A stretch of DNA of 64,000 nt, taken from NCBI GenBank assembly GCA_000004985.1, contig GG738853.1; one strand, given 5' to 3'. This DNA comes from Naegleria gruberi. Lineage: Eukaryota. The position numbers and the translations under genes were made by a program. The notes under the pieces are model-generated. The model did no database searches. It saw only the letters and a list, made by a program, of their open reading frames with translations, and was not told the origin of the DNA. Below, in pieces: positions 4,048 to 50,371 of the stretch. The first letter of the stretch is position 1, and each line of letters opens with the position of its first letter.

Positions 4048-4575
4048 CTGTGATGATGAAAAATATTTTTTTTTTAAAGATGATTTTAGTTTTTTGAAGA
4101 GGAAAATTTAAATAGTCACGATCAACTTTTATATTATTACACAATGAATTCAATATATTGGCAAAATAATATTATTAGTGGTTTGTGGTCTTTAGAAATA
4201 GCACATACTATGCAAATTAAAATCCCTATTTGAAGTCGGGTTTGGTGCAAATTTGAATTTCTTGTTGGAATTTGAAGCAAATTGAAGGCTTGTGACTCAG
4301 CTCATTTTTAAATTGCTTGGAACTAATAATAAGTAATACAACATTGTACGTTTGATGAGCTATCATGGATATCAAAGAACAATTATTGACTCTACATTGC
4401 TATCATTATTTCGAATCAAAGAAGCGTCGATGATCGTCAATACGAGCAATTATTGGTGTAATGAAAAGGTAATTTTTTCTCCAATCCAAAAACGACCATT
4501 TGTAAGAGTCAACCACTTGCGATCCCAATTTGTACATAAATCAGTACAAGAATTTATAAAAGTCAAACTTAAAAA

Positions 4576-4896
4576 ATGAGAGTACTTAGATCATTCAACA
4601 ACAACTTGAGAAAGCTCACCAGAGGACATGATGCCCACGCCCATCATCACGAGGTAAGTGAAAATAATATTTTGATCAAACCAACATTGGACTTGAACAA
4701 CAACAAAAAAACATTGTATTTAAATATTATTGATTAACAATAGCTCGTCTGCCTCAATAATGGACCACCATCAAAGGCTGCTGCCCTCACTTTCCTTGGA
4801 TCTTTGAGTGTTGTTCCAACTCTTTTGACTAGTTTGTGGTATGCCACTTATGTTGGTAATCCAATTACTAGAGCTTCCCAAAAGAAGGAAGAATAA
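4576..4896 (+). CDS. Small (~76 aa) protein with a presequence-like N-terminus and one TM helix; two exons, 4576..4653 and 4744..4896 (coordinates +/-2).
   Basis: The ATG sits in aaaaaATG context. Exon 1 reads MRVLRSFNNNLRKLTRGHDAHAHHHE, then a GTAAGT donor; the intron is 90 nt and ends AACAATAG. Exon 2 reads LVCLNNGPPSKAAALTFLGSLSVVPTLLTSLWYATYVGNPITRASQKKEE*. It resembles small mitochondrial inner-membrane subunits, but I cannot assign a family. Confidence 0.35.
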
Positions 4897-4976
4897 ATCC
4901 ATTCAGCTAGCATGCAAAATAACTAGTAAATATCGAGATGGGCCAAACAGAAAAAAGAAAATAAATTAGGTTGGTT

Positions 4977-26810: not shown

Positions 26811-27680
26811 TTAATCACTGTCGTGCTCAACGATTTGCATTCTTGACATTCTGCTCTTGGCTCTTTTATCTGTGACTGCTTCTTGAGGTTCTTTGGATTT
26901 GGATTTTGGTTTAGAGTTCTTTTCGGAATTGGTTTTGTTTGATGAGATTTCAACTTTTTGTTCGAATTCAATTTCCTTAGTATCTAAATCATATTCCGAA
27001 AGTTTCTTGTACACATCAATTTCCATAACAGGGGCTGTTTTCTTTATAGTTGGTTGTGGACTTTTGACAAAGTCTCCAACCTTTGCCCATTCCTGTTCCA
27101 ATTCCTCAATATTCTTTGGTTTATCACTCCTAGCTTCATTGTTACTGCTATGAATGTTCCAAAAGTCCACATCTGTAGAAAAGAATTGTTTTTCAAATTC
27201 CGAAGGTGGTGGAAGTCCTGAAGAGAAGATATTTTCATCGTCACTATCCTGATCTTCTATTGAGGGAAGAATTCTATTAACTTCCTTATGCATTTGTTTG
27301 TATTTCGACCTGAGATTTTCAGCTTGTTTTCTCTTTGTTTCCTCATAATTATTTGGTGAGGTTGGTTTTGTTTTACCACCGATATAATTCCATTTCCCCC
27401 AGTCTAAGGCAGCGTACCTTGCCCTGCAAATATCGGGTGTAAAAATTTGAGGTTCTATATTCACTAACTCCTTTTCATAAACTGACTTGAGAAATACAAT
27501 AAATTTCTGAAAAGAGCCAGCAACTCTCACAAAATCAAAATCATGAACCTCGACCAATCGCATCAATTGCTCATTCATTTCTACAATACACTCTCTTGTT
27601 TGATTTACATAGGGTTTCTCCGAGTTACTTAGATGATTTGTTTCCTCTTGATGATGAAGACGTTCCTTAGCAAGTACCAT
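26811..27680 (-). CDS. Hypothetical conserved-looking protein (289 aa) with an acidic/basic C-terminal half.
   Basis: A long ORF starting at an ATG. The globular N-terminal ~120 aa includes ARYAALDWGKWNY. Its stop lies 5 bp from the stop of the convergent GIGYF gene. Confidence 0.45.
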   Translation of the reverse strand: MVLAKERLHHQEETNHLSNSEKPYVNQTRECIVEMNEQLMRLVEVHDFDFVRVAGSFQKFIVFLKSVYEKELVNIEPQIFTPDICRARYAALDWGKWNYIGGKTKPTSPNNYEETKRKQAENLRSKYKQMHKEVNRILPSIEDQDSDDENIFSSGLPPPSEFEKQFFSTDVDFWNIHSSNNEARSDKPKNIEELEQEWAKVGDFVKSPQPTIKKTAPVMEIDVYKKLSEYDLDTKEIEFEQKVEISSNKTNSEKNSKPKSKSKEPQEAVTDKRAKSRMSRMQIVEHDSD

Positions 27681-27917: not shown

Positions 27918-30900
27918 TTACTTCATATCCTTCAGCTCGACATATTTAAATAATGCAGTATTGGGTAGAAGTGTATCTTTCTTCTCACTAATGTCTTGCA
28001 TTTGTCTCTTGATGAGTAGGAGGCAATTAAGAATGGTTTCAAAGGTTGGACGTACTCGATAATCATCTGCCCAACAAGATTTCATTAATTCCAAATATTC
28101 ACTCACCAACAGTCCAATGCTATCTTTCTGAGTGGGATAGGTTTTGAATTCTGGCATGAATTCTTCAAGCCATTCCATCTTTTCCTCCTCACTGAATGGA
28201 ATTAGCGGTCTTTCACCTTGCATGACACGAGCTAGGACTGTGAATGGAGTTTTTGGATCTGCATTCAAGGAATTTCTCTTTTGATTAGAGTGGAATTTGT
28301 GGAGCTTGTAGGACTTTCCGTTCATGTATGGGTTGTCCTCAAAGAACATTTCCCACATTATAATACTGAAACTGAAAACATCCTTTTGAGATTTGTAAAT
28401 ATTATAATTGAGTAATAATGTACTTACAACTGCCGTAGTGATCATATTGTTATCATTATTTCCGTCATCTGATTTCATAACTTCTGGAGCTATATAGAAT
28501 AATGTGCCTACGCATGTTGTGGTTGTGTGGCAAGTATTGGACATGATCTTACTCAATCCAAAATCACACACTTTACAAATTCCTTTAGAATCAATTAAAA
28601 TATTAGCAGGTTTCAAATCTCTGAGAATAGAAAGAGTGAATATCAAGTAATCTAAGCTCACTTACCTGTGAATAATTTTCAAACTATGCAGATATACCAT
28701 TCCACAAGTGATATCGATGAGAGTATTCAATTTTTGAATGAAGGAAATTTGAGTAGGATTTTCTGTTCTTCTCATTTCATTAATTAGCTTTTCTAAACTT
28801 CCCTTCTCCAAATATTCGACAACCAAATATTGTTTGTGGAGACTAATAGAAATACCATAGAATAGTACAATATTAGGATGTCTAAGTTTACATAATAGAG
28901 CCGCTTCCTTTTCAATCTCATCAGAATCCATACTTCCAGACGAAGTAGTGTCAATTCTCAAGCATTTAACTGCGACAGCATTATGGTGCCATTTACCTAA
29001 ATAGACAACTCCTGATCCTCCTTCTCCAATTTTTTTCTCCAAAAATATTTGATCTATACTAATGACAAAACTGTTCTTCTTATCATGGCTGTGCTGATGA
29101 CCTGGTTCATTGAGAGAAATATACTCATTCTCCAATAGTCTCTTCTCAATGTCCTTCTCAGCCTTATCTCGTTGCACCCAATACAGAACCTTCCTTCCTG
29201 CCTTTACACAGACACAAATGACTAGAGACAATATAAGGAGTGATAAAGCAAATACTACAATAGTCACGCACACAGCTACAATGATTATATAATCAGTAGG
29301 TGTATTCTCTTTACAAATGTAGGAAGATGAGTGTGACAGATAGTTAGCTTGGTTAATACTGAATCCATTTGGGCAGGGGATTACGTTGATGGTCAACTCG
29401 GTACTAGTTCTTAAAAAAGTGAGCTTGGCTCTAATTTTAGTCGGTACGAATGTGGAATTTGAAGCAGTAACAAACATGTTGTTGAAATCTGCGCTAGTTG
29501 AGAGTGAAAAGCTCTCAGGGTTAGTTGTAGTGACAAAACTTTCCTTGCATGTAAAAAACTGATTGCCTACAAAGTCGGTAAAGGTTGGAGTAAATGAAAA
29601 CGCTTGACCTGGATATAAAGTCATTTCAGTTTGCTTGGCATCTCTTGATATTGGTCCCCAGTCAACTGATTTAATTGGTGTGGAAATGTCATTACCATGA
29701 CTAGTAGCAGAGTTTCCTGTAATTGTATTGGTTTTAGTGTCGAGCTCCAAGTCATTTAGCGAGAAGAAAATTCCACCACCAGAATAGACAGCCTTATTGT
29801 TGATAACTGTGTTATTGACAAACTTGGCAGCTGGGTCTGGGGTGAAGATTCTCAGTGATATTGCCCCACCAGAAACAGCAGAATTCCTTTCAAATCTATT
29901 AGAAACCAATTCAATTTCAGATCCAGTATTGCTTGAATCAAAGTAAATAGCACCACCATATCCTTTGCATATTTCTCTATTGCAATTCACAATATCTTTT
30001 GATACCACTGAGTTCTCTATGAATGTTGTGGTGACAATTGACATGGTATCATGTGACAGAGCAGCTCCTCCAGAATACAGAGCCCTATTACCAATGAAAA
30101 GGCAATCTTCCAAATGAAGTCCATATCGAGAGTAGATAGCTCCCCCTATTGTTGCATAATTGTCTTTGAATTGACACATTGAAAACAATACTGGTGTGTA
30201 GCTGATATAAATGGCACCACCACCCACATTGCTTGCTCTATTTCTAATAAAGGAGCACCCAGTAAAATATGAAAGAGATCCATATGTATACTCCTCATTG
30301 GTAAATGAAATAGCTCCATATGAACCACTGTTATTGATAAAGGAAACATTGTTCATTAGGACAGAGGAAACTTGATTCAATCTGAGAGAGCTAAAGTCTG
30401 CTACATTATTCTCAAACACAGAGTCTACCACAGCGAGACTTCTAATATTTCTAAGTTGGACATTATTTCCAGCAATACCTGCAATCCCATTAGAAACAAT
30501 CATTTCATAAATTGCGGCCATGGCTGTCTGCTCAATTCTTAATGATGATTTTCCAATGTATCTATCAAAAGTCATTGCAAAAATGACAGCAACTTTACAA
30601 TATGAAACTCTCAGAATTGGAAGATTTTCGCGTGGGGATTCTACCAATTCAATGCTAGCTTTATATGCTGCAAATTCATCCACATCCTGAAATAATAAAT
30701 ATCCTCCAACTCTCAGTACTGACTCATAAAGCCATACTGACGTAATGGACGAGAATACATCATTCTTTTGAATTGGTAAACTCGAATTACTAATAATTAA
30801 GGTTTTAAAATTTTTAAATACCAAATGATTCAACACTTCCACTTGTACATTGTGAAAAAAGGCACTTGTGACAACACCTGTTGGATCCCCTAATATTAAT

Positions 30901-31778
30901 CCGAGATGACCTTTAGAATTTACATTAATCAACGCAACAGACTCATAAATACTATTCAGTGTAGTATTGTTCAATACAGCATCCCTGATCACAACACAAC
31001 CCAAAACAAATGTATTATAAAGAGATATGCCATTAAAAATCATGTAAACTTTCGGATTGGGAGTATAATGCAATAAATATGCATTATTACAATTAACAAT
31101 CTTATTTTCTCCATGAATTTGGTAAATGATCGTGTAATCTAATGAATACATTTTCATAAGAAAGTTCAATTCAACTATTCCAGTACAAGATGCACTCGGC
31201 ACATCAGTTGCCAACAAGATATCAATCACAACAAGTGCAATTGGAATTTTTGTGTTATTGGCCTCATTATAAATATCCAATAATTTTGTTGTTAAATCTG
31301 TAATTATTTGTTTTCCAATTTTTGTAAAAGTATTACATCCAATCACACAATCCATATATTCCGAATCTGGAGTATCGGCAACATAGACATAACTTAATTT
31401 CTGATAGGCACATCTACCCTTCTGTACAAAATAACAATCTGTAATCCTCCTCTCTGTAAAGGTATCCACCTCATATTTGACATAATTTATACCTGCTTTC
31501 ATGTATCGTGGAGTAAGATATAGAGTTTGATGATCTAGTTTTTCGGTGGGTGAAAAAACTGGATTATTATTGTTTGTAGAGGCTACATTAATTATAGTAT
31601 TAGTAGTGTTACTACTAATCGGAGTGATGAAATTATTTACAAATACTAGTATTACTAGAATGATGGTAAAAAGTTTCGAATAATAAATACATGGTTTCGA
31701 ATAATTTATAAAAGGAATGATGATGGTGTGAGGGAATTTATTCCATGCATCAATGTTAATGAGATTTAAATTTCGCAT
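27918..31778 (-). CDS. Receptor-like Ser/Thr (TKL-type) protein kinase with a Pmp-repeat / parallel beta-helix ectodomain. Exons complement(28666..31778) and complement(27918..28620), with a 45-nt intron.
   Basis: It has a signal/anchor (LFTIILVILVFVNNFITPISS). The ectodomain carries repeated GGAIY / FxxNxA...GGAI units (Pmp-type). The TM helix is IIIVAVCVTIVVFALSLLILSLVICVCV. The kinase has GEGGSGVVYLGKW, VAVK, HR|DLKPANILID (split by the GTAAGT...CAG intron 28621..28665), DFGLSK, APE and CWADDYRVRPTF. Confidence 0.8.
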
Positions 31779-32104: not shown

Positions 32105-33691
32105 ATGCTTAGCCAAGAAGACCTCAACTCTGTTAATACTTTGAATGACGACTATGAAAAGCGCAGACTCAGCAAGGATCGGATTAAAAAACAAGCTCGG
32201 AAGGCTCTAATTGATCATCAAAGATTGAAACATTTCAAAACAAAAAATTTCTTGCTGAGAAGAGTGGTTCTTCCTTTTTCTGAAATTGAAATTGAAAGAT
32301 TAGCAATATATATGAATATGGAATTTAATAATTATGAAACAATTTTTGAAAGTGTAAAAATGATTAGATTGTTTTCGGCTGGAACAGATTTGCACTTTTC
32401 ATGGATTGTTAAAGCTGGAATTACAAAGTATCTTGTTGATTTTCTTGATGTGAAATATGTCTCAAGGTATTTCAATATTCAAAGCGATGAGAATTTTCAT
32501 ATTGATGATTCCTCAATAACAAATAGAATAAGCACAGCACAGTTATTGGCACTTCAATATGAATCTGTGAGGTCTCTTACTAATATAGGCCGCAGAACAA
32601 TAGAGTATGTTCAACATATTGTAGACCTAGGATGTGTTCCAAAATTGATTATGCTCGTTAATGCTTGTAATGATTCTGAAATGCAATATCAGTCCATTTT
32701 GGCATTAGATAACATTAATCAAAATAGTCACGAAATAATAGAGTTCAGAGATACATTGCTAAGTCATGGCTATTTGGACATACTTATCAATTTTATTAAT
32801 TCAAACAATAATCAATTGGAGCGAATTCGAAATGGTATGTGTTTAAAATTTATTATATTCATTAATTTTTGCAGTAACATACTCAATTTCTATTTTATTA
32901 TCGAGAAATTACACCACAGCACCTGTACAATATTTTGAAAAGGCAATCCCAATACTTTCCAAAATGCTCCATCAATCTGAGATATCTGATGGTTTTCTTT
33001 GGGATTTTTCCTTACTAACAGATGTAGAACCTGCAATTAATCAATTGGTTATTACATCCGATACCATTTCAAAATTGGTGGCACTCCTCTCCGACAGCTC
33101 TATACATAACCAAATGTAAGTATCACATAGATTCTTTCTACTCATCAATAGTAATACAGACCTGCTTCTCGTACTATTTCAAATATTTGTACAGATAATA
33201 CTATTCAAACAGAAATTGCCTTAAATAGTGGATTATTGGAAAAGGTATCCATTTTCCTTACGAGTGAAAACAATTTACTCATAAGAGAAGCATTCTATAT
33301 ACTTTCAAGTATACCTGCAGAACAAATCGAGGGGGTGGTAGTGAATTCTAAAATAACGCCTCTTTTTTTGGAAACGTCAAAATTTAATGATAATCTCTTT
33401 GTCAAACCTGGGCTGTTTTCTTTCATAGAGACTCTGTGCTGCCGTGGCAACCATAAAATTATTAATCATCTAATCAATCTCAATGTAATTGAAATATTAC
33501 ACTCTGGATTGTGTGATGAATTTCTTAGAGTATGTTTAGAAACCCTTTCCAATATTTTACAAGTTGAAGAGTGCAAAGAAAGGGCCATTCAAGAGATGAA
33601 ACATTTGAACACTTTTGAAAAGATCAAATCAGAGATTCAAAATGCAGACCTTACAAAATCCATTGGTGCTACATTGGCTTCCTTACTTTAA
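32105..33691 (+). CDS. Divergent importin-alpha-like armadillo-repeat protein; exons 32105..32834, 32875..33115 and 33160..33691.
   Basis: ARM signatures line up with importin alpha: SVRSLTNIGRRTIEYVQHIVDLGCVPKLIML ~ ALTNIASGT...GAVP.FI.LL; IPILSKMLHQSEISDGFLWDFSLLTD ~ [54 protein letters not shown] ~ [55 protein letters not shown]. The introns are 40 nt (GTATGT..GCAG) and 44 nt (GTAAGT..TACAG). Exon lengths sum to 1503 nt. The basic N-terminus is IBB-like. Confidence 0.6.
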
Positions 33692-34395: not shown

Positions 34396-35529
34396 TTAGA
34401 AACACTTTCTGTGAACGATACCTGGGCCGGCATCCTCATATTCTTCCTTCGTTATCCACATCTGTTGGAATGTTGAAAGTGAGGCTAAAATACTGCCTCC
34501 AATCCAGACTGAGTACTTTCTTTCTGGTGGAGCAACAACCTTAATCTTCATTGAGGCAGGAGCCATAGCAGTCAATTCCTTGGTCATTCTTTCAGCAATA
34601 CCTTCGAACATGGTAGTACCACCAGATAAGACAACGTTACCGTACAAGTCCTTTCTGATGTCAATGTCACATTTACCAATTGAGTTGAAAGTAGTTTCAT
34701 GAACACCAGCAGCTTCCATACCAATGAAATTAGGTTGGAACAAGACTTCTGGACATCTGAATCTTTCATTACCAACAGTGATAACATTACCGTCTGGCAA
34801 TTCATATGACTTTTCAACTGAGGATGATTCAGCAGCAACCTTCATTTCAGCTTCAAAGTCCAAAGCAATATAACAGAGCTTTTCCTTAATATCTCTGACA
34901 ATTTCTCTTTCAGCAGTAGTGTTGAATGAGTAACCTCTTTCCATCAAAATCTTCATCAAGTAATCAGTCAAGTCACGACCAGCCAAATCCAATCTCAAGA
35001 TGGCATGTGGCAAGGCATAACCTTCATAAATTGGAACAGTGTGAGAAACACCATCACCAGAGTCCAAAACAATACCAGTAGTTCTACCAGAAGCATACAA
35101 GGACAAGACAGCTTGAATAGCAACATACATTGCTGGAACTGAGAAGGTTTCAAACATGATTTGAGTCATCTTTTCTCTATTGGCCTTTGGATTCAAAGGA
35201 GCTTCAGTCAACAAGACTGGATGTTCTTCTGGAGCAACTCTCAATTCATTGTAGAAAGTGTGATGCCAGATCTTTTCCATATCATCCCAATTGGTAACAA
35301 TACCATGTTCAATTGGATACTTCAAAGTCAAGATACCTCTCTTTGATTGAGCTTCATCACCAACATAGGCATCCTTGTTACCCATACCAACCATGATGGA
35401 CTTTTGCTTTGGTCTACCAATAATTGAAGGGAAGACAGCTCTTGGAGCATCATCACCAGCAAAACCAGCTTTACACATACCAGAACCGTTGTCAACAACG
35501 AGGGCTTGAACGTCTTCACAGAAGGACAT
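34396..35529 (-). CDS. Actin (intronless, divergent isoform).
   Basis: A 377-aa protein about 88% identical to conventional actins throughout ([84 protein letters not shown]...). It has an unusual N-terminus MSFCEDVQ and scattered substitutions. Confidence 0.9.
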
Positions 35530-41780: not shown

Positions 41781-42929
41781 ATGTTGCCAACAACGAGCGA
41801 TTTAGATGACTTTTTCAACAGTTTCCCTACACCGGTTCAGCTTGTGGAGAAGGAACGAATTACCTTTTGCAATATTTTAGATGATATTCCTGCAGAGAAG
41901 AAACCAACAAGTCCTCCGAAGAGAGACAAGGACATGGCAACCTTTATTCAGGATATCTATGAAGACATCATCATGAAGACGAATTTGGTTGAGACTGAAG
42001 AATTTGAGAATGATCAAAATAGAGTGTCTTTGAGAAGAAGAAAACTTGCCTTGTCTAAAAAAAGTGGAATTTCACAATATGGAGACATTGATAATTTGGA
42101 AATATTCTTGTTTGGTGTTGATGAGAGTCAAAAAGACAAAGTTTGTAAGATTATTGGAGATACAGATATTAAGAAATCTTCTGGCTCCTTGGACATTAAG
42201 AGTTGCAAGACAATTCATAGTGTGATGAAGAAGTGTGAAAAATGTCGATTGATTTTATGGATTTGTACGAAAGATAACAAGGAAATATTGCAGTTATTGG
42301 TTTGTACAAAGGTTTATCCAGTTACCAATGAAAAGCTTGATCCCTCTGAATCCAGAAAGAAAGTAAAGCGCAATAGTCAACCAGGAGAAGCTTCATCTTC
42401 TGGAATAGACGCAGCCAGTACTGATTTGGTGTCTCAACTTGACCTTGCTTTTGCAAATAATTCAAACACTAATAGCTTGCAATCAGCAAGCACAACCATT
42501 CAAAATAATCCTATTCCACATGAAAATAGTCAACCTCTTTCTCAGCCAAAGGTAGTATATAAATCCCGCCCAGCTGAACTTGCCCAAATGTCTCAAGAAG
42601 ATCTCATAGCCAAAATTATTCGATTGGAAGGCATAATAGAAGACAGAGACAATACCGTTGCTTCTACCCATCAACATTACAATGTTAAAATTTCTGAAAT
42701 GGCTCTTGCTCACTTTAACAATATCCAAGAACTGTTCCAACAGATCAATCGTCTTAATAAGGAAAATTGCGATCTCAAATGTACTTTGAATCCACAAGAT
42801 ACAATTGCACACAAGCAACTTTACATTGAACAATTCGAAGATGCAAAAGAAGTGGTCAATCACCAAGAAAATTTAGATTTGTTTGATGGTGAAACTTCTG
42901 ATGACGTTTATAATAACCTTTTCAACTAG
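41781..42929 (+). CDS. Hypothetical protein (382 aa) with a C-terminal coiled coil.
   Basis: A long ORF with an ATG start. Heptad-like C-terminus (LIAKIIRLEGIIEDRDNTVAS..., INRLNKENCDLKCTL). Confidence 0.45.
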   Translation: MLPTTSDLDDFFNSFPTPVQLVEKERITFCNILDDIPAEKKPTSPPKRDKDMATFIQDIYEDIIMKTNLVETEEFENDQNRVSLRRRKLALSKKSGISQYGDIDNLEIFLFGVDESQKDKVCKIIGDTDIKKSSGSLDIKSCKTIHSVMKKCEKCRLILWICTKDNKEILQLLVCTKVYPVTNEKLDPSESRKKVKRNSQPGEASSSGIDAASTDLVSQLDLAFANNSNTNSLQSASTTIQNNPIPHENSQPLSQPKVVYKSRPAELAQMSQEDLIAKIIRLEGIIEDRDNTVASTHQHYNVKISEMALAHFNNIQELFQQINRLNKENCDLKCTLNPQDTIAHKQLYIEQFEDAKEVVNHQENLDLFDGETSDDVYNNLFN

Positions 42930-43083
42930 TAAAACTTACTTCAAAAATTGAGTTTAATGTGTTATAAATTTATTTCCCTTACCTACTTGTTTCTGGCCAC
43001 ACAGGTAGACATAATCGTTTCTGGTTTTAATGCTACAGAACCCAATCTTTGGCATAATAGAAAATCTCCTAAATAAATTAGAT

Positions 43084-44070
43084 CTATTTATTCTTGATAT
43101 TATTGTAAAAATCTTGTAGTGATTGCCAATACTCAAATGGTAATCCTGTATCGTGCCGTGAAGCATCTCTAACAAAAACACCAACCATATCTCCACGTTC
43201 AATAGTGGGACACATAGCTTCTCTTAAATTAAGTTCACCATTATGAAGTTTTCCACATTTCCAATTTTCTCTCAAATGGGTAAACACTTCATAGGTTAAA
43301 ATGTCAATGCCAAAATAGCAGACAACATCATTTTCATTCTTACATGTTCTCTCCACTTCAAGCATTTGTAACTCCTCCTCTGTTATATAGAGATTGTGAT
43401 TTTCACATTGAATCTTGTTCGGTTTCTCAATAGTAGTCAGAATGGACGTATAAACAACCTCACTCTCCTTCTCCAATACTTGTCCAATCTTTAGCACACC
43501 ATTTGCATACGTATGTTTTTCTGAAATGGTATCCAATGTGACAATAGCCTTATTGAACTTGTTAAAAGCTCTAACAGCATACTGCAAACAACTTTTTCCA
43601 CTTTGAGTCCTCGATGTATAGATATGATCTCCCAACAAGACAATAAATGCCTCATTCTCCTTAATGAATTTATCAGCACAACACAACAATGCATGTCCAA
43701 ATCCAAGTTGTTCCTCCTGTACAATAAAAGTCAGAGTTTTTGAAATTTTCTCAATCATTCTCATCGAATCTTGAATTTCCTTTGCTTTTCCTTCCATAGA
43801 AAAAGCACAAGGCGCATTGAAAAATTCCTCTATAATACTCCTCTGATTTTCCTGCATGACAATACAAACTTGAATATCATCCCATCCGATTTCTGGTTGT
43901 TCTGCAAGTAGCGCCTCCACTGCATGTTCAATAATTATTAATAAAATAGGCTTGCAAAGTTTATCTTTCGGATCAAGGATTGGAAAGAGAGCCTTTGGCA
44001 TGACTTTTGATGCAGGAAACATTCTCGTGCCGTGACCTGCAATAGGTATGATGACTTTGGTGATTGCCAT
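43084..44070 (-). CDS. UTP--glucose-1-phosphate uridylyltransferase of the bacterial GalU type.
   Basis: The N-terminus MAITKVIIPIAGHGTRMFPASKVMPKALFPI matches the GalU/GlmU nucleotidyltransferase signature ([25 protein letters not shown]). LGFGHALLCC also matches. Confidence 0.8.
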   Translation of the reverse strand: MAITKVIIPIAGHGTRMFPASKVMPKALFPILDPKDKLCKPILLIIIEHAVEALLAEQPEIGWDDIQVCIVMQENQRSIIEEFFNAPCAFSMEGKAKEIQDSMRMIEKISKTLTFIVQEEQLGFGHALLCCADKFIKENEAFIVLLGDHIYTSRTQSGKSCLQYAVRAFNKFNKAIVTLDTISEKHTYANGVLKIGQVLEKESEVVYTSILTTIEKPNKIQCENHNLYITEEELQMLEVERTCKNENDVVCYFGIDILTYEVFTHLRENWKCGKLHNGELNLREAMCPTIERGDMVGVFVRDASRHDTGLPFEYWQSLQDFYNNIKNK

Positions 44071-44224
44071 TTTTTTTAAATAATAATTAATTATTAAATT
44101 ATTAATAAATATTAAAGATTACAAATATTTAACAATATTTAAATACTAATTTGTAAACCACGTACTAATATTACACTGTAATATTATTACATTCAACCAT
44201 GTTCCGATTTCTTCTATCAAAAAA

Positions 44225-45157
44225 ATGTCTCTCGATCAAACTTCATCTCCACCACCTCCAGAATCCAACAATTTACTCTCCTGTTGTTCCTTCAATGTTC
44301 ATCACTTCTCCACTGCATACGGAAGGAGTAACCTCACCGAATTATACAAATATTTGCATAAAAACAATTTCGACATTGTCTGCCTGAATGAAGTTTATGA
44401 AGATAGCGAGTATTCTCATCCTCTGAGAGATTTGGTTTATGCATTGAATTCATCATTACCTGAGGAGGTGGAAGTGGCTCGGCCCTATCAATATCGATCT
44501 GGACCCACTAATTATGAATCGAATATTATTCTGAGTAAATATCCAATTCTATTTCAGGAAAAGAAGGATGTTGGAAGAGGTGAAAGATCAGTACTTGGTA
44601 TTAAAATTGATCATCCATTGGTGAGGAATGTATTTGTGACTCATTTGGATCATGTGAGTGAAAATAAGAGAGTGTTACAATTGAAGAGAGTCTTGTCTTT
44701 TATGAAACACTTTATTGATAGGAAATTGGTGGATTATCCAAATGATGAGAATAAGAATTTCATTCTTCTTGGAGATTTTAATTCAATGAGAATGGATGAT
44801 TATACGGATAAGTTTTGGGATTATCTCATTAAGCAGAGAATTCAATATGGTTGGGAAGCTCCAGATACCCAAGTTACCTCCCTATTATTTAATGAACCAA
44901 CAACACCAGAAAGTCACTCCACAGAAGAAGCTGACGAACCTAAACTAAAAATGCCACTCGTGGATTGTTGGAAAGTTTTAAATCCAGATATCATATTTGA
45001 GGGAGAGAAAGGAACTGGTTCTTCAAGACTCGACACTCGAATTGACTATGTCATTAGTAATACTGAATTGCAGCCATATCTCAAACAATCATGGATTGAT
45101 TCCGATGCTTCTGGTATTTCAGATCACCTTCCTGTCGTTGTATTATTTGAGTTTTAA
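44225..45157 (+). CDS. Endonuclease/exonuclease/phosphatase (EEP) family protein.
   Basis: EEP motifs are present: FDIVCLNEV, LLGDFNS, SRIDYVI, SDHLPVVVLF. Confidence 0.7.
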   Translation: MSLDQTSSPPPPESNNLLSCCSFNVHHFSTAYGRSNLTELYKYLHKNNFDIVCLNEVYEDSEYSHPLRDLVYALNSSLPEEVEVARPYQYRSGPTNYESNIILSKYPILFQEKKDVGRGERSVLGIKIDHPLVRNVFVTHLDHVSENKRVLQLKRVLSFMKHFIDRKLVDYPNDENKNFILLGDFNSMRMDDYTDKFWDYLIKQRIQYGWEAPDTQVTSLLFNEPTTPESHSTEEADEPKLKMPLVDCWKVLNPDIIFEGEKGTGSSRLDTRIDYVISNTELQPYLKQSWIDSDASGISDHLPVVVLFEF

Positions 45158-45213
45158 TATAAAATAATTTTGAATCAAAGTAAATTCGATATCAGATACT
45201 GTCAAAAAATTTT

Positions 45214-45294
45214 CGCGGTCTACAGGATTCGAACCTGTGCGGGTCGCCCCAATTGATTTCTAGTCAATCACCTTAACCACTCGGTCAAGACCGC
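45214..45294 (-). tRNA. tRNA-Ser (anticodon AGA), type II tRNA with a long variable arm.
   Basis: The sense strand is GCGGTCTTGACCGAGTGGTTAAGGTGATTGACTAGAAATCAATTGGGGCGACCCGCACAGGTTCGAATCCTGTAGACCGCG. The anticodon loop is CTAGAAA, the T-arm is GGTTCGAATCC, and the discriminator is G. It is nearly identical to metazoan tRNA-Ser(AGA). A T-run follows on its strand (plus 45205..45213). Confidence 0.85.
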
Positions 45295-45539
45295 TTCTCA
45301 TTGCAAGGTATGTATTAAGGGATTCGTTCCGGAATATTCCTGCAACACAAAAATTCAATCAATTTGCCAAATGTGAAAAAACATTTCTCAAAAATAATAC
45401 TCCTCAATCAACAGATTCAGACTGCGGATCGTGATATGAAGACCTGAAAATCATTTTGGATGGGAACAATTTTCCTCTCATTAGAAGTAAACAGTTCTTG
45501 CTTTTTACTGAAGGAATAGCATAAAATCAAAATTTCAGA

Positions 45540-45620
45540 CGCAGACTGCAGGATTCGAACCTACGAAGGTTTCCCCAACAGATTTCAAGTCTGTCGCCTT
45601 AACCACTCGGCCAAGTCTGC
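45540..45620 (-). tRNA. tRNA-Ser (anticodon TGA).
   Basis: The sense strand is GCAGACTTGGCCGAGTGGTTAAGGCGACAGACTTGAAATCTGTTGGGGAAACCTTCGTAGGTTCGAATCCTGCAGTCTGCG. The anticodon loop is CTTGAAA. A T4 run lies downstream on its strand. Confidence 0.85.
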
Positions 45621-45900
45621 TTCATTTCACAGTAATATTAAGGCATTTGTGGAAAAATGTCCTTTCAGCAATTCAAACTCTAACTTTTTTTTGATAGAGG
45701 TCATTTATTGGTCAATCTGAGAAGAGGAAATTAGAATAGCAGAAGAATTGAGAGGTTTTGATGAATATACCTCCATTTCAACCAACTCATTTCATAATTG
45801 TTACCTTTGTGAAGGAAACAAATAAATACCAAAGTGTGCTAAAATAATATGAAATAAAACAATTGTTTCAATCTCAATTTATCTTCAAAGTATTTTGAAA

Positions 45901-46791
45901 ATGCACCTTCCTTTACCATGTGGTTTAAAAATTACCCGAATAGGAAAAAAAATGGCAACAACCGAGAGTACTTTATCATCCACAGAAAAGTGTTGTTGTG
46001 GAGGTGATGATTCATCATCAATGAGCACTTCTTCAACTCCATCAAATAGTATTAGCACAATAGTTGAGCCACACATGGTTGAATACAACTCCCTAACAGG
46101 ATGTAAGGAATTATTTTCTACCAATCCAAAGGTTGTTGTTCCTGGAGCAATCTACATTAAAAACTACATTTCGGAAGAGGAAGAGGAGAGAATTATGAAA
46201 TTAATTGACTCTAAGGCATGGTGCCATGAAATTTGTAGAAGAACACAAATGTATGGCTATACCTATTATCATACAAGACATAATCTTCCAACAATGCAAC
46301 CAGTTAATGAGAGCTCTTCCAATTATCAACATTTGGATTTGAAGGAATTTGATTGGCTTATTGAAAGACTTGTGGAACGGGATGGACTGTACAAGACTGA
46401 TTATGGAAATCCAACACAATGTCTTGTGAATGAATATATTGGAACACAGGGAATTAGTAGTCATGTTGATAATCCTGGTCCGTTTGGAGATATCATCACA
46501 CTGGTTTCACTCAACAAACCAATTTACATGGTTCTGAAATTGGCATCCAATGAGAATATTCAAACTAAGATTCTACTCGAACCAAGAAGTTTATTTGTAA
46601 TGAAAGACGATTCCAGATTCAAATGGAAACATGGAATTACCCATATGAAACAAGTCTACGTCCCAAGCACTGGTGAAACATTAATAAGGGATGAAAATTA
46701 CAGAAGAGTGAGTCTCACCTTTAGATTTATCAAAACAGATGGAACGAAGAAAGTTACAAATGAAGATCCAAACGCTGATGCCTTGTGGTAA
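45901..46791 (+). CDS. AlkB-like Fe(II)/2-oxoglutarate-dependent dioxygenase. The start is ambiguous: ATG at 45901 or 45952.
   Basis: QCLVNEYIGTQGISSHVDNPGPFGDIITLVSLNKPIYM ... RVSLTFRF is the AlkB-homolog double-stranded beta-helix core, with HxD...H and RxS. Confidence 0.7.
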   Translation: MHLPLPCGLKITRIGKKMATTESTLSSTEKCCCGGDDSSSMSTSSTPSNSISTIVEPHMVEYNSLTGCKELFSTNPKVVVPGAIYIKNYISEEEEERIMKLIDSKAWCHEICRRTQMYGYTYYHTRHNLPTMQPVNESSSNYQHLDLKEFDWLIERLVERDGLYKTDYGNPTQCLVNEYIGTQGISSHVDNPGPFGDIITLVSLNKPIYMVLKLASNENIQTKILLEPRSLFVMKDDSRFKWKHGITHMKQVYVPSTGETLIRDENYRRVSLTFRFIKTDGTKKVTNEDPNADALW

Positions 46792-47114
46792 CAATCAATG
46801 ATGTTCGACAATAAACCAAGTTAGTTCATATCTCTGTGACTCTATTTCATTATCTAGGAAGTTGGGAACAATGGTATGATCTCAAATATCAAATGCAGGA
46901 CTTCCATTGAAGAGGATCTTCCTGACAAAAATAATAACTCAACTGTCACTAACAAAATCTTCTGCATTCTTCTTCATCTCAATATTTAACCTTCTTCTAT
47001 TAATTAATTTAATTACCTTTACTACAATTTATTATTACTGTAGTCTTGGACTAATTTGAAATAGCAAAACAACCCTTTCAGTAAAGAGTTAAATAATCCA
47101 GCGACACTTCTGAA

Positions 47115-48788
47115 ATGTCCATTCATGCCTTTATCACTCTCGGTGATTTTCAAATGCATAATTATCCAGAAATAACATCAGTGGATTCATCACCAGCCAA
47201 AAACTGGTCAAATATCGACCACTCTCATCAAGAGTACTACTCCCTTTCGAATATTATTAATTTTAATAGTAACACCTCGGAAACTTTTGCTGATGCTCAT
47301 CATCAAGAATTTAATTACCATTATCATCATCATCAGGAAGAGAATAATTATCAGTGTCGTACCACTCGTGCTATTAATAAGACCCGAATCATTCCCTTCA
47401 CTGATAAGGATGGAAGCATTAACAATAGAAGTAATATAGGTAGCATGGAAGAATTTCCATCATCACCATCATCATCAGCTCATCTACAACCAATCTCCTA
47501 TTTATCATCATCAGAGAGTTGGAATTATTCATCATCAACAATATCAACTGAAGAAAATTGCCTTGATGACTATAGAGTAGAATCACCAACAAGTTATTCT
47601 TACTCAACTAATACCGAAGAAGAAGAAGACTGCAACGATAGTTGTTTTGCATCATCATCAACATCATTCTATTATACTACCAGTAACGAGAGTTTATCTG
47701 CTGTTTCGTCAATAGTTTCTCTTGAAGAATTAAGTAATACAATGCCAATTCAAAAGAATAGTTCAAACTCCAACTTTGTACAAAGTGGTGACAGTTTTGA
47801 GGATTTGTCAATTCTCAACGATTCAGATATCATGGTTAGGGAAGAGGAAGATTGGATGTGTCTTCTTTTTCAAGATGGATTAAGAATGATTGATATTGAA
47901 TCGAGAGAATGGATTTTGGAACAAGTTGACTTTGATCAAGATTGGCAATATGTTGCTTGTTCGAATGTCTATTCAAAGAAAAAGTCAACCAACTCACAAC
48001 TTGAAAGAACTAATGTTTCAATGAATTTGAAGAATTTGAAGGATTATATTGATTGGAAGGAGTGTAAACAAGTCACTCATGTAAATAAGTATTCCAAGTT
48101 TGCCAAAACTGCTGGTAATATTCAATATTACAAACCAGCTCAACCAATTGTGAAAAAGAGCAAACTAAGCAAGGGTGTAATGGACTTTGTTTCGTCTGAG
48201 AATTTTGGAATGGCCACCATGTTGGTTTGTCCTCCTTTAATACTCGCTCATTGGTATGCTGTTTATCAAAAGGAAAGTATAGAATTGAATAGTGCCCAAT
48301 ATTTCGAATCTGAATGGGTATTCAATAATAGAGAACAATGCCTGGAATCAGTTGCCATTCTAAAGAGTTATCCTAAATACATTCAAAAACATATCAACCG
48401 ATACAGTCAAGAAGAATTAGACAAAGTCTTTCCAAAGAAAATTATTTCCAAGAGAATTGCCTACGACTATATTCGAAAGCACGGATTTAACATTGAAAAA
48501 GTTGAATCCAAAACTGGATCTACCACTCCTACTTTCTGTATCAAGTGTGGATCTGAAATTTTAATCGAGTTCATTTCCTCATTCCAATTTTGCCTTAACC
48601 TTATCAAGTTGTTTACTTTCATGTCAGTTTCATTCATTTCAAGAACTATGGCTCTTTCAGTCAATATTCTGTATGAACAATTGAGACGTGTCAATGAAGA
48701 AACTTCACACAATGAGGAACCTTTACAATCATCACCAGATGGAGAAGCCATTCTTTATCATACAAAGTTAATTTATTCATGTGAATAA
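47115..48788 (+). CDS. Hypothetical Ser-rich protein (557 aa).
   Basis: A long ORF with an ATG start. Low-complexity S/N/H-rich N-terminal half and a globular C-terminal half. I recognise no domain. Confidence 0.45.
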   Translation: MSIHAFITLGDFQMHNYPEITSVDSSPAKNWSNIDHSHQEYYSLSNIINFNSNTSETFADAHHQEFNYHYHHHQEENNYQCRTTRAINKTRIIPFTDKDGSINNRSNIGSMEEFPSSPSSSAHLQPISYLSSSESWNYSSSTISTEENCLDDYRVESPTSYSYSTNTEEEEDCNDSCFASSSTSFYYTTSNESLSAVSSIVSLEELSNTMPIQKNSSNSNFVQSGDSFEDLSILNDSDIMVREEEDWMCLLFQDGLRMIDIESREWILEQVDFDQDWQYVACSNVYSKKKSTNSQLERTNVSMNLKNLKDYIDWKECKQVTHVNKYSKFAKTAGNIQYYKPAQPIVKKSKLSKGVMDFVSSENFGMATMLVCPPLILAHWYAVYQKESIELNSAQYFESEWVFNNREQCLESVAILKSYPKYIQKHINRYSQEELDKVFPKKIISKRIAYDYIRKHGFNIEKVESKTGSTTPTFCIKCGSEILIEFISSFQFCLNLIKLFTFMSVSFISRTMALSVNILYEQLRRVNEETSHNEEPLQSSPDGEAILYHTKLIYSCE

Positions 48789-48794
48789 ACATTT

Positions 48795-49349
48795 TCAAAA
48801 TTCCATTCTCAAACTTCTATACTTTCTTACTATTTTTCCAAGTATATATCCAGAGCAAATTCCTAATAGCAAACTAGTCTTGTCTCCACTGATAAATTGT
48901 AATGCAAATGCTGCGAAACCAATTTCAATTTCTGATCTAGTTTTAAGATAGGAGAGATAGCCCAAAATGATATTACCAAAACCGAGCATGTGTCGATGTT
49001 GGAAGATCTTTCTCGATGGATCTGCAAACATCTTTTTGAAAATCAAATCAATGCAGACATTCACCATCAATAGACTGATCGTGATAGCAATCACTGTGAA
49101 AGATGAATATTCTCTTCTTTGGAAGAGCTTTCCTGATAACCAGAGACCATACAAGCAAATAAGAAGATGAACAACATTCCGATGAAACAAGACACTGCTC
49201 AACACCTTAAAATAATCTCCCTTTTCATAAATTTCAAAATAATTGTGTCCCACCTCATGTTCAATCGGTACAAAGGTGAATAGAATGATCAGTACGACGA
49301 TCATAAACCAAACAAAACTCAAATTTTTCATTTTTTGCCTTAATTTCAT
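48795..49349 (-). CDS. Rhomboid-like polytopic membrane protein, probably catalytically inactive (tentative).
   Basis: FHRNVVHLLICLYGLWLSGKLFQ matches the rhomboid TM2 HxxxN...HLxxN...G motif. The GxSG position reads GFGN and the TM6 His is absent. Confidence 0.4.
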   Translation of the reverse strand: MKLRQKMKNLSFVWFMIVVLIILFTFVPIEHEVGHNYFEIYEKGDYFKVLSSVLFHRNVVHLLICLYGLWLSGKLFQRREYSSFTVIAITISLLMVNVCIDLIFKKMFADPSRKIFQHRHMLGFGNIILGYLSYLKTRSEIEIGFAAFALQFISGDKTSLLLGICSGYILGKIVRKYRSLRMEF

Positions 49350-49386
49350 GTACTGGTAAGATGATACAATGATCCTCCAAATATTA

Positions 49387-50196
49387 GAAAAAATATTACC
49401 TCATATTATGATGATCGTTTGTCTGGATTAATTGATGATTGCGAGTATTTAGGGTGGTGGTTTAAAAAACATCTTGATTGTGAGCATACCATCATTGTAG
49501 AAGTATCGGTTCTTGATTTGTTTACTTATATGGAAATCGAATTCGATAAACCATACAATACTCATGAAGAACGTGAGAAGAATGAAACCTCACAAGATTG
49601 TAACGTGTCCATCCACGAATTTAGTGCAGAGGAAATCCAAGAAACGAAAGAATCAAAGATATTTGTGTTACTAGCTCTAAGTGGAGCTGGTTAGAGCCAT
49701 TCTCTATTCTATTTGAATACTAGCAACACAGCATTCACCCGTCCAATTGATTTCGGGTCTATTGAGGACAAACCCGTTCTACTGTCGAATCTTTAGAATA
49801 TATAGTCAACCAAGTTAAAAAGTTAAAACCAAACATAGATACGGATGAAGAAATCCAAAATGAAAACCAGATATTTGTTAATAATATTCAAGCAGTGCTG
49901 CAAGCTCTAAATACAAAAGTCTGTACTCCCAATGGAAAGAACGATTACGTTTTCTAGTGAAAATAAGAGATCAAAATATTTATTCTGGTGAGGAAGGTAA
50001 GGAATTTGAAGATCCCAGCCTGAGAATAGTATTTGACTATACTTTTGAGAATATTCAATTATTTAATCAATATAAGGAAAAAGTCACAACTAGTGATGTT
50101 GTAATTCTATTCAGTAAGGCTAATAATGTTGTTATTAATTACTTCAAAACAACATTTCCATTAATTTATGCAGCACTTAACGAATTCAACCATTAA
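49387..50196 (+). CDS. Hypothetical multi-exon gene; structure unresolved. Coding-like segments: 49387..49690, ~49840..49950 and 49957..50193.
   Basis: Three consecutive plus-strand coding-like segments that lack an ATG or are separated by in-frame stops: ...YYDDRLSGLIDDCEYLGWWFKKHL...SGAG; IDTDEEIQNENQIFVNNIQAVLQALNTKVCTPNGKNDYVF; YSGEEGKEFEDPSLRIVFDYTFENIQLFNQYKE.... I could not resolve the splice sites. Confidence 0.25.
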
Positions 50197-50371
50197 ATAT
50201 ACTACTACTAATTACAAGTGAGAAACTTCATTGCAAAAATAATAAGATTTCCCGCCAAAATTATTATTCCTGTTAAAGAGAATCACGTTTTGCAATTTTG
50301 GGTAATCAAGGCAAGGTTTTTTGTGACGTGTAAATTTCTCACACTTGACATTTGTAGCTTTTCAAAAAACA

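What the first reader, a model, noticed from the sequence alone, without database searches (positions are those of the whole stretch)
27918..31778. Single-pass receptor kinase whose ectodomain is a bacterial-adhesin-like Pmp/parallel beta-helix
The ~800-aa extracellular region repeatedly carries GGAIY / GGAIS / GGGIFF units preceded by FxxNxA. These are the Pmp (polymorphic membrane protein) repeat pattern of a right-handed beta-helix. A TM helix and a complete TKL-like Ser/Thr kinase follow (HRDLKPAN, DFGLSK, CWADDYRVRP). Pairing an adhesin-type beta-helix ectodomain with a cytoplasmic kinase is an unusual receptor design. It would let a carbohydrate- or surface-binding module signal directly. 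The kinase domain is split by a 45-nt intron exactly at HR|D.
Basis: partly seen in the sequence, partly recalled or inferred. Interest (0 to 1): 0.55.

Follow-up and report, generated by a model that had tools for sequence, protein, structure and literature searches.

The report
Naegleria receptor kinase with beta-helix ectodomain
A gene of the free-living amoeba Naegleria gruberi encodes a membrane-spanning protein kinase whose outer part is a beta-helix built from the repeats known from Chlamydia surface adhesins. The gene is real, belongs to a small uncharacterised Naegleria family, and appears to be missing from public protein sets.

Summary
On the minus strand, 31778 to 27918 encodes one protein: an N-terminal hydrophobic signal or anchor, a 773-aa ectodomain, one TM helix, a conserved juxtamembrane helix and a complete kinase. 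The kinase is an RD-type Ser/Thr kinase whose nearest solved relatives are Raf- and MLK-type (TKL) kinases.

Pfam Chlam_PMP and TIGR01376 both pass their curated cut-offs. The FxxN/GGAI units are far above chance, but they sit only at residues 455-700, not along the whole ectodomain.

The window is N. gruberi NEG-M. At least three N. gruberi paralogues, one N. fowleri protein and one metagenome contig share the architecture and the HR|D intron.

Two corrections. A second in-frame, stop-free 45-nt intron (28427-28383) was missed, so the protein is 1256 aa. The gene's ectodomain is in no public protein set I could search.

Function is inferred: a surface or glycan sensor that signals by kinase activation. 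It is a new ectodomain variant of the known protist receptor-kinase design, of moderate interest.

The parts
28666..31778 (-). Exon 1. Encodes residues 1-1037 plus two bases of the Arg1038 codon: N-terminus, ectodomain, TM helix, juxtamembrane segment and the kinase N-lobe up to H-R.
   Evidence: The ORF begins at the first ATG after a stop codon. The sequence at the splice site is ...ATT CAC AG|GTAAGT.
28621..28665 (-). Intron 1. 45 nt, GTAAGT...CTCAG, phase 2 within the Arg codon of HRD; contains an in-frame TAA.
   Evidence: An intron sits at the identical site in N. fowleri (76 nt) and in metagenome contig L001. The N. gruberi models P0015 and P0038 break off exactly there.
28428..28620 (-). 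Exon 2. Kinase catalytic loop, DFG, activation loop and APE, up to ...MITTAV.
28383..28427 (-). Probable intron 2. If retained it would insert VSTLLLNYNIYKSQK between APE and DVFSF.
   Evidence: It begins at one of only two GTAAGT sites in the gene and has the same length as intron 1. All three homologues that cover this region, and CTR1, lack exactly these 15 residues. AAAG-type acceptors are used in annotated N. fowleri introns. A third in-frame 45-nt GTAAGT intron is evident in the neighbouring NHL kinase. No transcript data support it.
27918..28382 (-). Exon 3. Kinase C-lobe (DVFSF ... CWADDYRVRP), the C-terminal tail and the TAA stop (27920-27918).
31614..31682 (-). N-terminal hydrophobic segment (residues about 33-55, KLFTIILVILVFVNNFITPIS): a signal peptide or a signal anchor.
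   Evidence: Kyte-Doolittle scan. Paralogue P0017 has a canonical N-terminal signal-like segment at residues 12-33. No dedicated signal-peptide predictor was available.
29709..31136 (-). Right-handed parallel beta-helix, residues about 215-690, roughly 17-18 coils. The N-terminal coils are degenerate and modelled with lower confidence.
29679..30416 (-). Pmp-type repeat zone, residues 455-700. Nine FxxN-type anchors and seven GGA(I/A)-type motifs, spaced 24-43 residues apart.
   Evidence: Pfam PF02415 and TIGR01376 both score above their cut-offs. It is the most conserved part of the ectodomain across the family.
29307..29675 (-). Membrane-proximal beta-sandwich (Ig-like) domain with a Cys-containing stalk, residues about 702-824. 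Conserved W707, YPGQxF, D735, C802-P803 and C822.
   Evidence: The model has ten beta-strands here, pLDDT 71-88. Foldseek matches Ig-like domains (SbsC, LigA Big) at probability 1.0 but with weak E-values of 6e-3 to 4e-2. Assigning those Foldseek hits to this segment is an inference.
29205..29291 (-). Single transmembrane helix, residues 830-858 (YIIIVAVCVTIVVFALSLLILSLVICVCV), followed by KAGRK (positive-inside).
   Evidence: Hydropathy peak of 3.28. Flanking sequence. A TM helix sits at the equivalent place in all homologues.
29127..29183 (-). Family-specific juxtamembrane motif YWxxRDKAEKDIEKRLLEN, residues 866-884.
   Evidence: Y866, W867, R870, E874, K875, E878, K879, R880, L881 and E883 are invariant in the 6-sequence alignment.
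28026..29039 (-). Protein kinase domain, interrupted by both introns. Motifs: GEGGSG, VAVK, HRDLKPAN, DFG, APE, DVFSF, CWADDYRVRP.
   Evidence: Pkinase 168 bits and PK_Tyr_Ser-Thr 165 bits. Motif check. Best solved relatives are CTR1 at 8e-38, then ZAK/MLT, MLK4, TNNI3K and Raf.

Best explanation
This is a three-exon Naegleria gruberi gene for a 1256-aa single-pass receptor Ser/Thr kinase.

Shown:
- The domain order is an N-terminal signal or anchor, a poorly modelled cap, a right-handed beta-helix of about 475 residues, an Ig-like domain, one TM helix, a family-specific juxtamembrane helix, and a kinase.
- The C-terminal coils of the beta-helix are canonical Pmp-type FxxN/GGAI repeats.
- The kinase is catalytically complete, of RD type, and lies in the TKL neighbourhood.
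- The protein belongs to a small Naegleria family. In that family the cytoplasmic part is conserved (48-66% identity) and the ectodomain diverges fast (28-30%).

Inferred:
- The beta-helix faces outward and binds an extended ligand. The most likely ligand is a polysaccharide or another cell's surface, for example bacterial prey or substrate. This is what the fold does in adhesins, tailspikes and polysaccharide-active enzymes.
- Ligand-driven clustering or dimerisation brings the kinase domains together.
- The domains then phosphorylate each other's Thr/Ser-rich activation loop (DFGLSKIMSNTCHTTTTCVGTLFYIAPE) and start a cytoplasmic phosphorylation signal. That signal plausibly feeds into adhesion, motility or phagocytosis.
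For: - Gene structure and continuity of ectodomain, TM helix and kinase.
- Pfam and NCBIfam hits above cut-off.
- Repeat statistics.
- TM helix and positive-inside residues; 9 N-x-S/T sequons in the ectodomain against 0 in the cytoplasmic part.
- 3D periodicity: nine of nine FxxN anchors have their F/V/I at the centre of a 3-residue strand, and seven of seven GGA(I/A) motifs end on the first residue of the next strand.
- Same architecture in N. gruberi XP_002673827 and XP_002674570, the truncated XP_002668634, N. fowleri XP_044567378 and metagenome contig L001.
- Conserved HR|D intron.
- Kinase motifs and TKL-type nearest solved relatives.
- Organism identity.
- Precedent that amoebal transmembrane kinases act in particle recognition and phagocytosis: Entamoeba PATMK (PMC2211552).
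- Precedent that protist TMKs arise by joining lineage-specific ectodomains to conserved kinases: PMC10463195.
- Pmp FxxN/GGA motifs mediate adhesion in Chlamydia: PMC2997323.
Against: - There is no expression, localisation, ligand or activity data.
- The gene, or at least its ectodomain, is absent from public protein sets, so there is not even a prediction-level record.
- The AF2 alignment had only 7 sequences, all from the family. The first ~160 ectodomain residues are low confidence.
- Topology rests on hydropathy and the positive-inside rule only.
- Intron 2 rests on comparative evidence, not on transcripts, and no homologue has an intron at that position.
- Nothing identifies the ligand. 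Beta-helix proteins include enzymes as well as binders.
Confidence: 0.6

Rival explanations
1. It is a cell-cell or self/non-self recognition receptor (mating, kin or cyst-related) rather than a prey or substrate sensor. The fast-diverging beta-helix would bind a Naegleria-encoded partner.
For: The ectodomain is only 28-30% identical between paralogues and between species, while the kinase is 48-66% identical. That pattern is typical of recognition molecules under diversifying selection. The family is small and found in more than one Naegleria species.
Against: No partner is known and no polymorphism data are available. The same divergence pattern fits prey or environmental ligand diversity equally well.
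Confidence: 0.15
2. The beta-helix is mainly an enzyme (a polysaccharide lyase, hydrolase or epimerase tethered at the surface) or a passive adhesin. The kinase would regulate it from inside, or signal only secondarily.
Against: Sequence identity to every enzyme hit is 6-14%. No enzyme family is detected by Pfam. The residues conserved across the family are repeat-scaffold Gly, Asn, Phe and Cys, not an obvious catalytic constellation. Pmp-repeat proteins are not known as enzymes.
Confidence: 0.15
3. It is a decaying or unexpressed paralogue (a pseudogene in the making), which would explain why no public protein model exists.
For: The exact and near-exact protein is absent from libraries that hold 11 other proteins of this window.
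Against: The reading frame is intact over 3.8 kb apart from two clean 45-nt GT-AG introns. All kinase catalytic residues and all family-invariant ectodomain residues are kept. The neighbouring ORFs at 26811-27680 and 32105-32938 are also absent from the libraries as simple ORFs, and the public model of the neighbouring NHL kinase retains an intron. This points to gaps and errors in the annotation rather than gene decay.
Confidence: 0.05
4. The ectodomain and the kinase are two adjacent genes that were read as one.
For: None beyond the general risk of reading raw ORFs.
Against: A single 1038-codon ORF runs from the ectodomain through the TM helix into the kinase N-lobe with no stop. The same continuity is seen in complete annotated homologues.
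Confidence: 0.02

Closest known systems
Uncharacterised Naegleria paralogues and orthologues: N. gruberi XP_002673827 (NAEGRDRAFT_80827), XP_002674570 (NAEGRDRAFT_70310), XP_002668634 (NAEGRDRAFT_76450, truncated); N. fowleri XP_044567378 (FDP41_011595)
   Same: They share the architecture: Pmp-type beta-helix, YPGQxF Ig-like domain, Cys stalk, TM helix, YWxxRDKAEKDIEKRLLE motif and kinase. They also share the HR|D intron site.
   Different: Ectodomain identity is only 28-30% and cytoplasmic identity 48-66%. None is a close copy of the window gene. All are named only 'predicted protein' or 'protein kinase domain-containing protein'. I found no paper describing them.
Chlamydial polymorphic membrane proteins (Pmp; PF02415/TIGR01376), type V autotransporter adhesins
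   Same: Both have repeated FxxN and GGA(I/L/V) motifs that form the coils of a right-handed beta-helix exposed on the cell surface (PMC11166332, PMC10715098, PMC2997323).
   Different: The Naegleria protein has no autotransporter beta-barrel and no Pmp middle domain by Pfam. It is eukaryotic, anchored by an alpha-helical TM segment, and fused to a cytoplasmic kinase.
Entamoeba histolytica transmembrane kinases (EhTMKs, e.g. PATMK, TMKB1-9)
   Same: These are amoebal single-pass receptors with a TKL-like cytoplasmic kinase. They form multigene families, and some members take part in phagocytosis (PMC2211552, PMC2880585).
   Different: As I recall, EhTMK ectodomains are Cys-rich CXXC-type repeats related to the Gal/GalNAc lectin, not beta-helices. 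Amoebozoa and Heterolobosea are unrelated lineages, so the fusions are independent.
Plant RLK/Pelle receptor kinases, animal receptor Ser/Thr kinases, and protist TMKs in general
   Same: The design principle is the same: a lineage-specific ectodomain, one TM helix and a TKL-group kinase (PMC10463195).
   Different: No beta-helix or Pmp ectodomain class is reported in that survey. The nearest solved kinase here is Raf-like CTR1, not Pelle/IRAK or STKR.
Bacterial Hanks-type Ser/Thr kinases with sensor domains, including P0140 (N-terminal Pkinase plus C-terminal Chlam_PMP repeats)
   Same: A kinase domain and Pmp repeats occur in one polypeptide.
   Different: The domain order is reversed. No strong TM segment is detected in P0140. 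It is an independent fusion, and the kinase is only distantly related.
Eukaryotic membrane proteins with beta-helix ectodomains (TMEM2/CEMIP2; fibrocystin/PKHD1, the latter from memory)
   Different: They have no kinase and no Pmp-type repeats. TMEM2 is an enzyme.

Membership tests
Pmp-repeat beta-helix proteins (Pfam PF02415 Chlam_PMP / TIGR01376 POMP_repeat) | Score above the curated cut-off of the repeat models | tested here: met
   PF02415 scores 32.1 bits against a cut-off of 20.6. TIGR01376 scores 22.8 against 15.
Pmp-repeat beta-helix proteins (Pfam PF02415 Chlam_PMP / TIGR01376 POMP_repeat) | Multiple paired FxxN and GGA(I/L/V) tetrapeptides at a regular spacing | tested here: met
   Seven paired units lie at residues 480-672, spaced 24-43 residues apart. 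The shuffle mean is 0.03 and the maximum is 2.
Pmp-repeat beta-helix proteins (Pfam PF02415 Chlam_PMP / TIGR01376 POMP_repeat) | Repeats form the coils of a right-handed parallel beta-helix | tested here: met
Chlamydial Pmp autotransporters (type Va secretion) | C-terminal autotransporter beta-barrel and Pmp middle domain | tested here: not met
   Pfam finds neither. The C-terminal part is a TM helix plus a kinase. The protein is therefore not a Pmp autotransporter and shares only the passenger-type repeat.
Eukaryotic protein kinase superfamily, active RD Ser/Thr kinase | Gly-rich loop, VAIK Lys, alphaC Glu, HRDLKxxN, DFG, APE, subdomain IX Asp and subdomain XI Arg | tested here: met
   GEGGSG, VAVK, EIEKEA, HRDLKPAN, DFG, APE, DVFSF and CWADDYRVRP are all present. 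Pkinase scores 168 bits. Catalytic activity itself was not tested.
TKL (tyrosine-kinase-like) group | Groups with Raf/MLK/IRAK-type kinases in a kinome phylogeny | tested here: inconclusive
   The best solved relatives are CTR1 (8e-38), ZAK/MLT, MLK4, TNNI3K, B-Raf, Raf1 and DLK, interleaved with tyrosine kinases. PK_Tyr_Ser-Thr scores almost as high as Pkinase. No phylogeny was made.
Single-pass (type I) receptor kinase | One reading frame joining ectodomain, one TM helix and a cytoplasmic kinase | tested here: met
   The architecture is conserved in homologues.
Single-pass (type I) receptor kinase | Cleavable signal peptide and extracellular orientation of the N-terminal domain | tested here: inconclusive
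   A hydrophobic segment at residues 33-55 follows a long 32-residue N-terminal region. KAGRK follows the TM helix. There are 9 sequons outside and 0 inside. No SignalP- or DeepTMHMM-type tool was available. A two-TM topology with an uncleaved anchor would still put the beta-helix outside.
Single-pass (type I) receptor kinase | Ligand-dependent activation at the plasma membrane | not testable with these tools
   This needs localisation, ligand binding and phosphorylation experiments.
Naegleria Pmp-ectodomain kinase family (defined here) | Pmp repeats, W/YPGQxF Ig-like domain, CP...C stalk, TM helix, YWxxRDKAEKDIEKRLLE motif and kinase with a phase-2 intron in the HRD Arg codon | tested here: met
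   Invariant columns in alignments A1 and A2. The intron site is shared with N. fowleri and L001.

The most novel reading that the evidence does not exclude
The family is a prey- or microbe-pattern receptor system of a deep-branching free-living eukaryote. The adhesin-type beta-helix ectodomains would recognise bacterial surface polysaccharides and directly switch on a TKL kinase that drives adhesion or phagocytosis. That would be an independent invention of receptor-kinase 'innate recognition', using a fold otherwise known from bacterial adhesins and phage tailspikes. The N. fowleri member would then be a candidate host-contact sensor.
Probability: 0.2. Interest if true: 0.65.

Novelty: new variant of a known kind. 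Interest (0 to 1): 0.4.

Why it matters
Receptor kinases outside animals and plants are poorly understood, and what their ectodomains sense is almost unknown.

This case joins a fold specialised for long, repetitive ligands (glycans and surfaces) to an intact TKL-type kinase. The host is Naegleria, a genus that contains both a laboratory model and the brain-eating N. fowleri, which has its own family member.

It gives a concrete, testable candidate for how an amoeba couples surface contact to intracellular signalling.

It also exposes annotation problems in the reference N. gruberi genome. This gene appears to be missing from the public protein sets I could search. In-frame, stop-free 45-nt introns are retained or overlooked, including in a published neighbouring kinase model.

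Tried and rejected
- Word-index homologue searches. I ran three: the ectodomain, the full-length protein and the family alignment. They returned nothing or only generic plant kinases, and did not even recover the alignment's own members. Only the exhaustive HMMER search worked.
- Single-sequence AlphaFold. The model had pLDDT 31 and was unusable.
- AFDB Foldseek. The library was not available.
- Metagenome scan with family patterns. It found only four generic kinases.
- Exact-gene look-ups for N. gruberi loci. The neighbour ORF, P0017 and EFC47889 were not on record, so I could not read the public annotation of this scaffold directly.
- Alternative intron candidates. GTAAGT...TTTCAG of 56 or 62 nt was rejected because it shifts the frame and would delete the invariant DVFSF.
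- Organism. I first guessed Naegleria from the window's prolyl-tRNA synthetase, whose best solved-structure match is PDB 6nab. I recall 6nab as N. fowleri. Exact matches later fixed the organism as N. gruberi NEG-M.
- Literature. Searches for Pmp plus kinase, Naegleria plus Pmp, and Naegleria receptor kinases found no description of this architecture.
Full report
**1. What is in the sequence**

The minus strand carries an ORF of 1038 codons from the ATG at 31778. It ends in ...LKIIHR followed by a stop. The DNA there reads ATT CAC AG|GTAAGT...CTCAG|A GAT TTG AAA CCT. This is a 45-nt GT-AG intron (28665-28621) that contains an in-frame TAA and splits the Arg codon of HRD in phase 2. Splicing continues the frame to the TAA at 27920-27918.

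No competing gene lies on the plus strand; only a 60-codon ORF is found there. The neighbouring genes are close, with 237 bp downstream and 326 bp upstream.

**2. A second intron**

I aligned the protein with its homologues. It carries 15 extra residues, VSTLLLNYNIYKSQK, between APE and the invariant DVFSF of kinase subdomain IX.

The corresponding DNA (28427-28383) starts with GTAAGT. This is one of only two GTAAGT sites in the whole gene; the other is the start of intron 1. The stretch ends in AG, is again exactly 45 nt, is in frame and has no stop.

All three homologues that cover this region lack exactly this stretch, and so does CTR1, the best solved relative. Acceptor sites of the AAAG type are used in annotated N. 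fowleri introns.

A third stretch of the same kind sits in the neighbouring NHL kinase at 52806-52850. Removing it restores the canonical GRGGFGSVYKVKY glycine loop.

I therefore model three exons and a 1256-aa protein. I put the confidence in intron 2 at about 0.85. There is no transcript evidence, and no homologue has an intron at this particular site.

**3. Organism and annotation status**

Ten of ten simple ORFs from the window are exact matches to Naegleria gruberi NEG-M proteins on one 695,587-bp scaffold. The NHL kinase also matches exactly.

The target gene does not. Neither candidate spliced product nor the exon-1 ORF is in the 15-billion-sequence collection. An exhaustive HMMER scan of 1.84 billion 50%-identity representatives also found nothing above 30% identity along the length of the ectodomain. 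The ectodomain is thus absent from the public protein sets I could search.

I could not read the scaffold's annotation table directly.

**4. Ectodomain**

Pfam Chlam_PMP scores 32.1 bits against a cut-off of 20.6, and TIGR01376 scores 22.8 against 15.

The FxxN-(3-9 residues)-GGAI pattern occurs 7 times, against a shuffle mean of 0.03. The units lie at residues 455-700 with a spacing of 24-43 residues. This covers roughly the last third of the ectodomain, not all of it.

- A single-sequence AlphaFold run failed, with pLDDT 31.
- With the 7-sequence family alignment A2, the model reached pLDDT 74 and pTM 0.70, with block means of 83-98 for protein residues about 356-706.
- Foldseek listed the same fold class, but with weak E-values.

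Mapping the motifs onto the DSSP string (model residue = protein residue minus 56) gives a strict register:

- The first residue (F, V or I) of each of the nine FxxN-type anchors (residues 455, 480, 510, 537, 561, 586, 629, 658, 686) is the middle residue of a three-residue strand.
- The last residue of each of the seven GGA(I/A)-type motifs (residues 490, 523, 548, 573, 611, 640, 670) is the first residue of the following strand.

The motifs are therefore periodic in 3D.

The rest of the ectodomain is as follows:

- The helix appears to extend N-terminally to about residue 215 through degenerate coils.
- Residues 57 to about 215 are low confidence.
- Residues about 702-824 form a beta-sandwich. 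Foldseek pairs it with Ig-like domains (SbsC, LigA) at probability 1.0 but weak E-values.
- This segment carries family-invariant W707, PGQ-F, D735, C802-P803 and C822.

**5. Membrane and cytoplasmic parts**

Hydropathy gives one strong TM helix (830-858, peak 3.28) followed by KAGRK. An N-terminal hydrophobic segment lies at about 33-55. There are nine N-x-S/T sequons in the ectodomain and none in the cytoplasmic part.

The juxtamembrane motif YWxxRDKAEKDIEKRLLE is nearly invariant in the family.

The kinase has every catalytic signature: GEGGSG, VAVK, HRDLKPAN, DFG, APE, DVFSF and CW...RP. Its nearest solved relatives are CTR1, ZAK/MLT, MLK4, TNNI3K, Raf and DLK, interleaved with tyrosine kinases.

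**6. Relatives**

Five library proteins align along most of the ectodomain in a single stretch:

| Protein | Source | Length | Note |
|---|---|---|---|
| XP_002673827 | N. gruberi | 1213 aa | complete |
| XP_002674570 | N. gruberi | 1103 aa | |
| XP_002668634 | N. gruberi | 754 aa | model ends at ...IIHR, the intron site |
| XP_044567378 | N. fowleri | 1272 aa | |
| P0038, on contig L001 | ENA metagenome | 514 aa | model reads into the same intron |

(Sources.)

- All those with a kinase region show the same order of parts.
- The N. fowleri gene has four introns in the kinase region. One is at the identical phase-2 HR|D site.
- Cytoplasmic identity to the window protein is 48-66%. Ectodomain identity is only 28-30%.
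- The remaining hits are generic Pmp-repeat proteins that match many times over the repeat zone.
- One of them, P0140, is a bacterial-type protein with an N-terminal kinase and C-terminal Pmp repeats. It is an independent fusion in the reverse order.

**7. Context**

The same window holds a second receptor kinase at 50372-53605. It has an NHL beta-propeller ectodomain, an EGF-like motif and a TM helix, and its kinase is only 32% identical to the target's.

Naegleria therefore uses the 'lineage-specific ectodomain + TM + kinase' design repeatedly. A cross-kingdom survey describes the same for protists generally (PMC10463195). That survey mentions neither Naegleria nor beta-helix or Pmp ectodomains.

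Entamoeba TMKs are the best-studied amoebal analogues, and some act in phagocytosis (PMC2211552, PMC2880585).

**8. Mechanism (inferred)**

I propose the following, by analogy with single-pass receptor kinases and with what beta-helix surfaces do in adhesins, tailspikes and glycan-active enzymes:

1. The helix binds an extended ligand on prey, substrate or other cells.
2. Binding clusters the receptors.
3. The RD kinase domains trans-phosphorylate their Thr-rich activation loops.

What is shown is the architecture, the fold prediction, the catalytic completeness and the conservation of the family. What is not shown is expression, topology, ligand and activity.

The rivals are a self-recognition receptor, a tethered enzyme or adhesin, a silent paralogue, and two separate genes. 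They are listed with their tests in the rival-explanations section.

**9. Verdict**

It is a new ectodomain variant of a known receptor design. It is undescribed in the literature I could search, but it is present as unnamed database entries in two Naegleria species. Interest is moderate.

Noticed in passing
window 50372-53605 (+), especially 52806-52850: A second single-pass receptor kinase sits here. It has a signal peptide, a ~700-aa NHL-repeat ectodomain, an EGF-like Cys motif, a TM helix and a kinase, and it matches annotated XP_002680487.1 exactly. The public model appears to retain an in-frame 45-nt GTAAGT...TTATTAG intron inside the glycine loop. Removing it changes GRGGFGSGKFIGNIFIRIFSLLVYKVKY to the canonical GRGGFGSVYKVKY.
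   Followed up: partly
window 28665-28621, 28427-28383, 52806-52850: Three introns of exactly 45 nt begin with GTAAGT. Two of them are in frame and stop-free, so ORF reading does not reveal them. Such introns may be systematically missed in N. gruberi gene models.
   Followed up: partly
window about 41781-53605: Several proteins here (EFC47739, EFC47892, EFC47742, EFC47743) have copies at 90% identity or more on a separate 9,198-bp N. gruberi scaffold (EFC35740-35745). This is probably an allelic or duplicated contig in the assembly.
   Followed up: no
window 34399-35529 (-): The product of this actin gene is identical to at least four other N. gruberi actin entries on six contigs.
   Followed up: no
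window 26811-27680 (-) and 32105-32938 (+): The two ORFs flanking the target are a 289-aa protein and an Armadillo-repeat protein. Neither is in the protein collection as a simple ORF product. They are either spliced differently in the public models or unannotated.
   Followed up: no
L001 (ENA ERZ929261, 6,078-bp metagenome contig), 1325-5025: This contig carries a family member. A prokaryotic gene caller split it into three 'genes' at its introns. It has 33% GC and an intron at the same HR|D site. It is about 33-44% identical to the window protein, so it comes from an unsequenced Naegleria-like amoeba in that sample.
   Followed up: partly
protein P0140 (library hit, 1630 aa): This bacterial-type protein has an N-terminal Pkinase domain (174 bits) and C-terminal Chlam_PMP repeats (151 bits), with no strong TM segment. 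It is an independent kinase-Pmp fusion in the reverse order.
   Followed up: partly
L002 (N. fowleri VFQX01000009.1), 1501-5723: The N. fowleri family member has four introns (90, 76, 71 and 167 nt), all in the kinase region and none in the 2.6-kb ectodomain exon. The NCBI model lacks an N-terminal signal segment, whereas an ENA-derived model of the same locus (P0012) starts further upstream and has one.
   Followed up: partly
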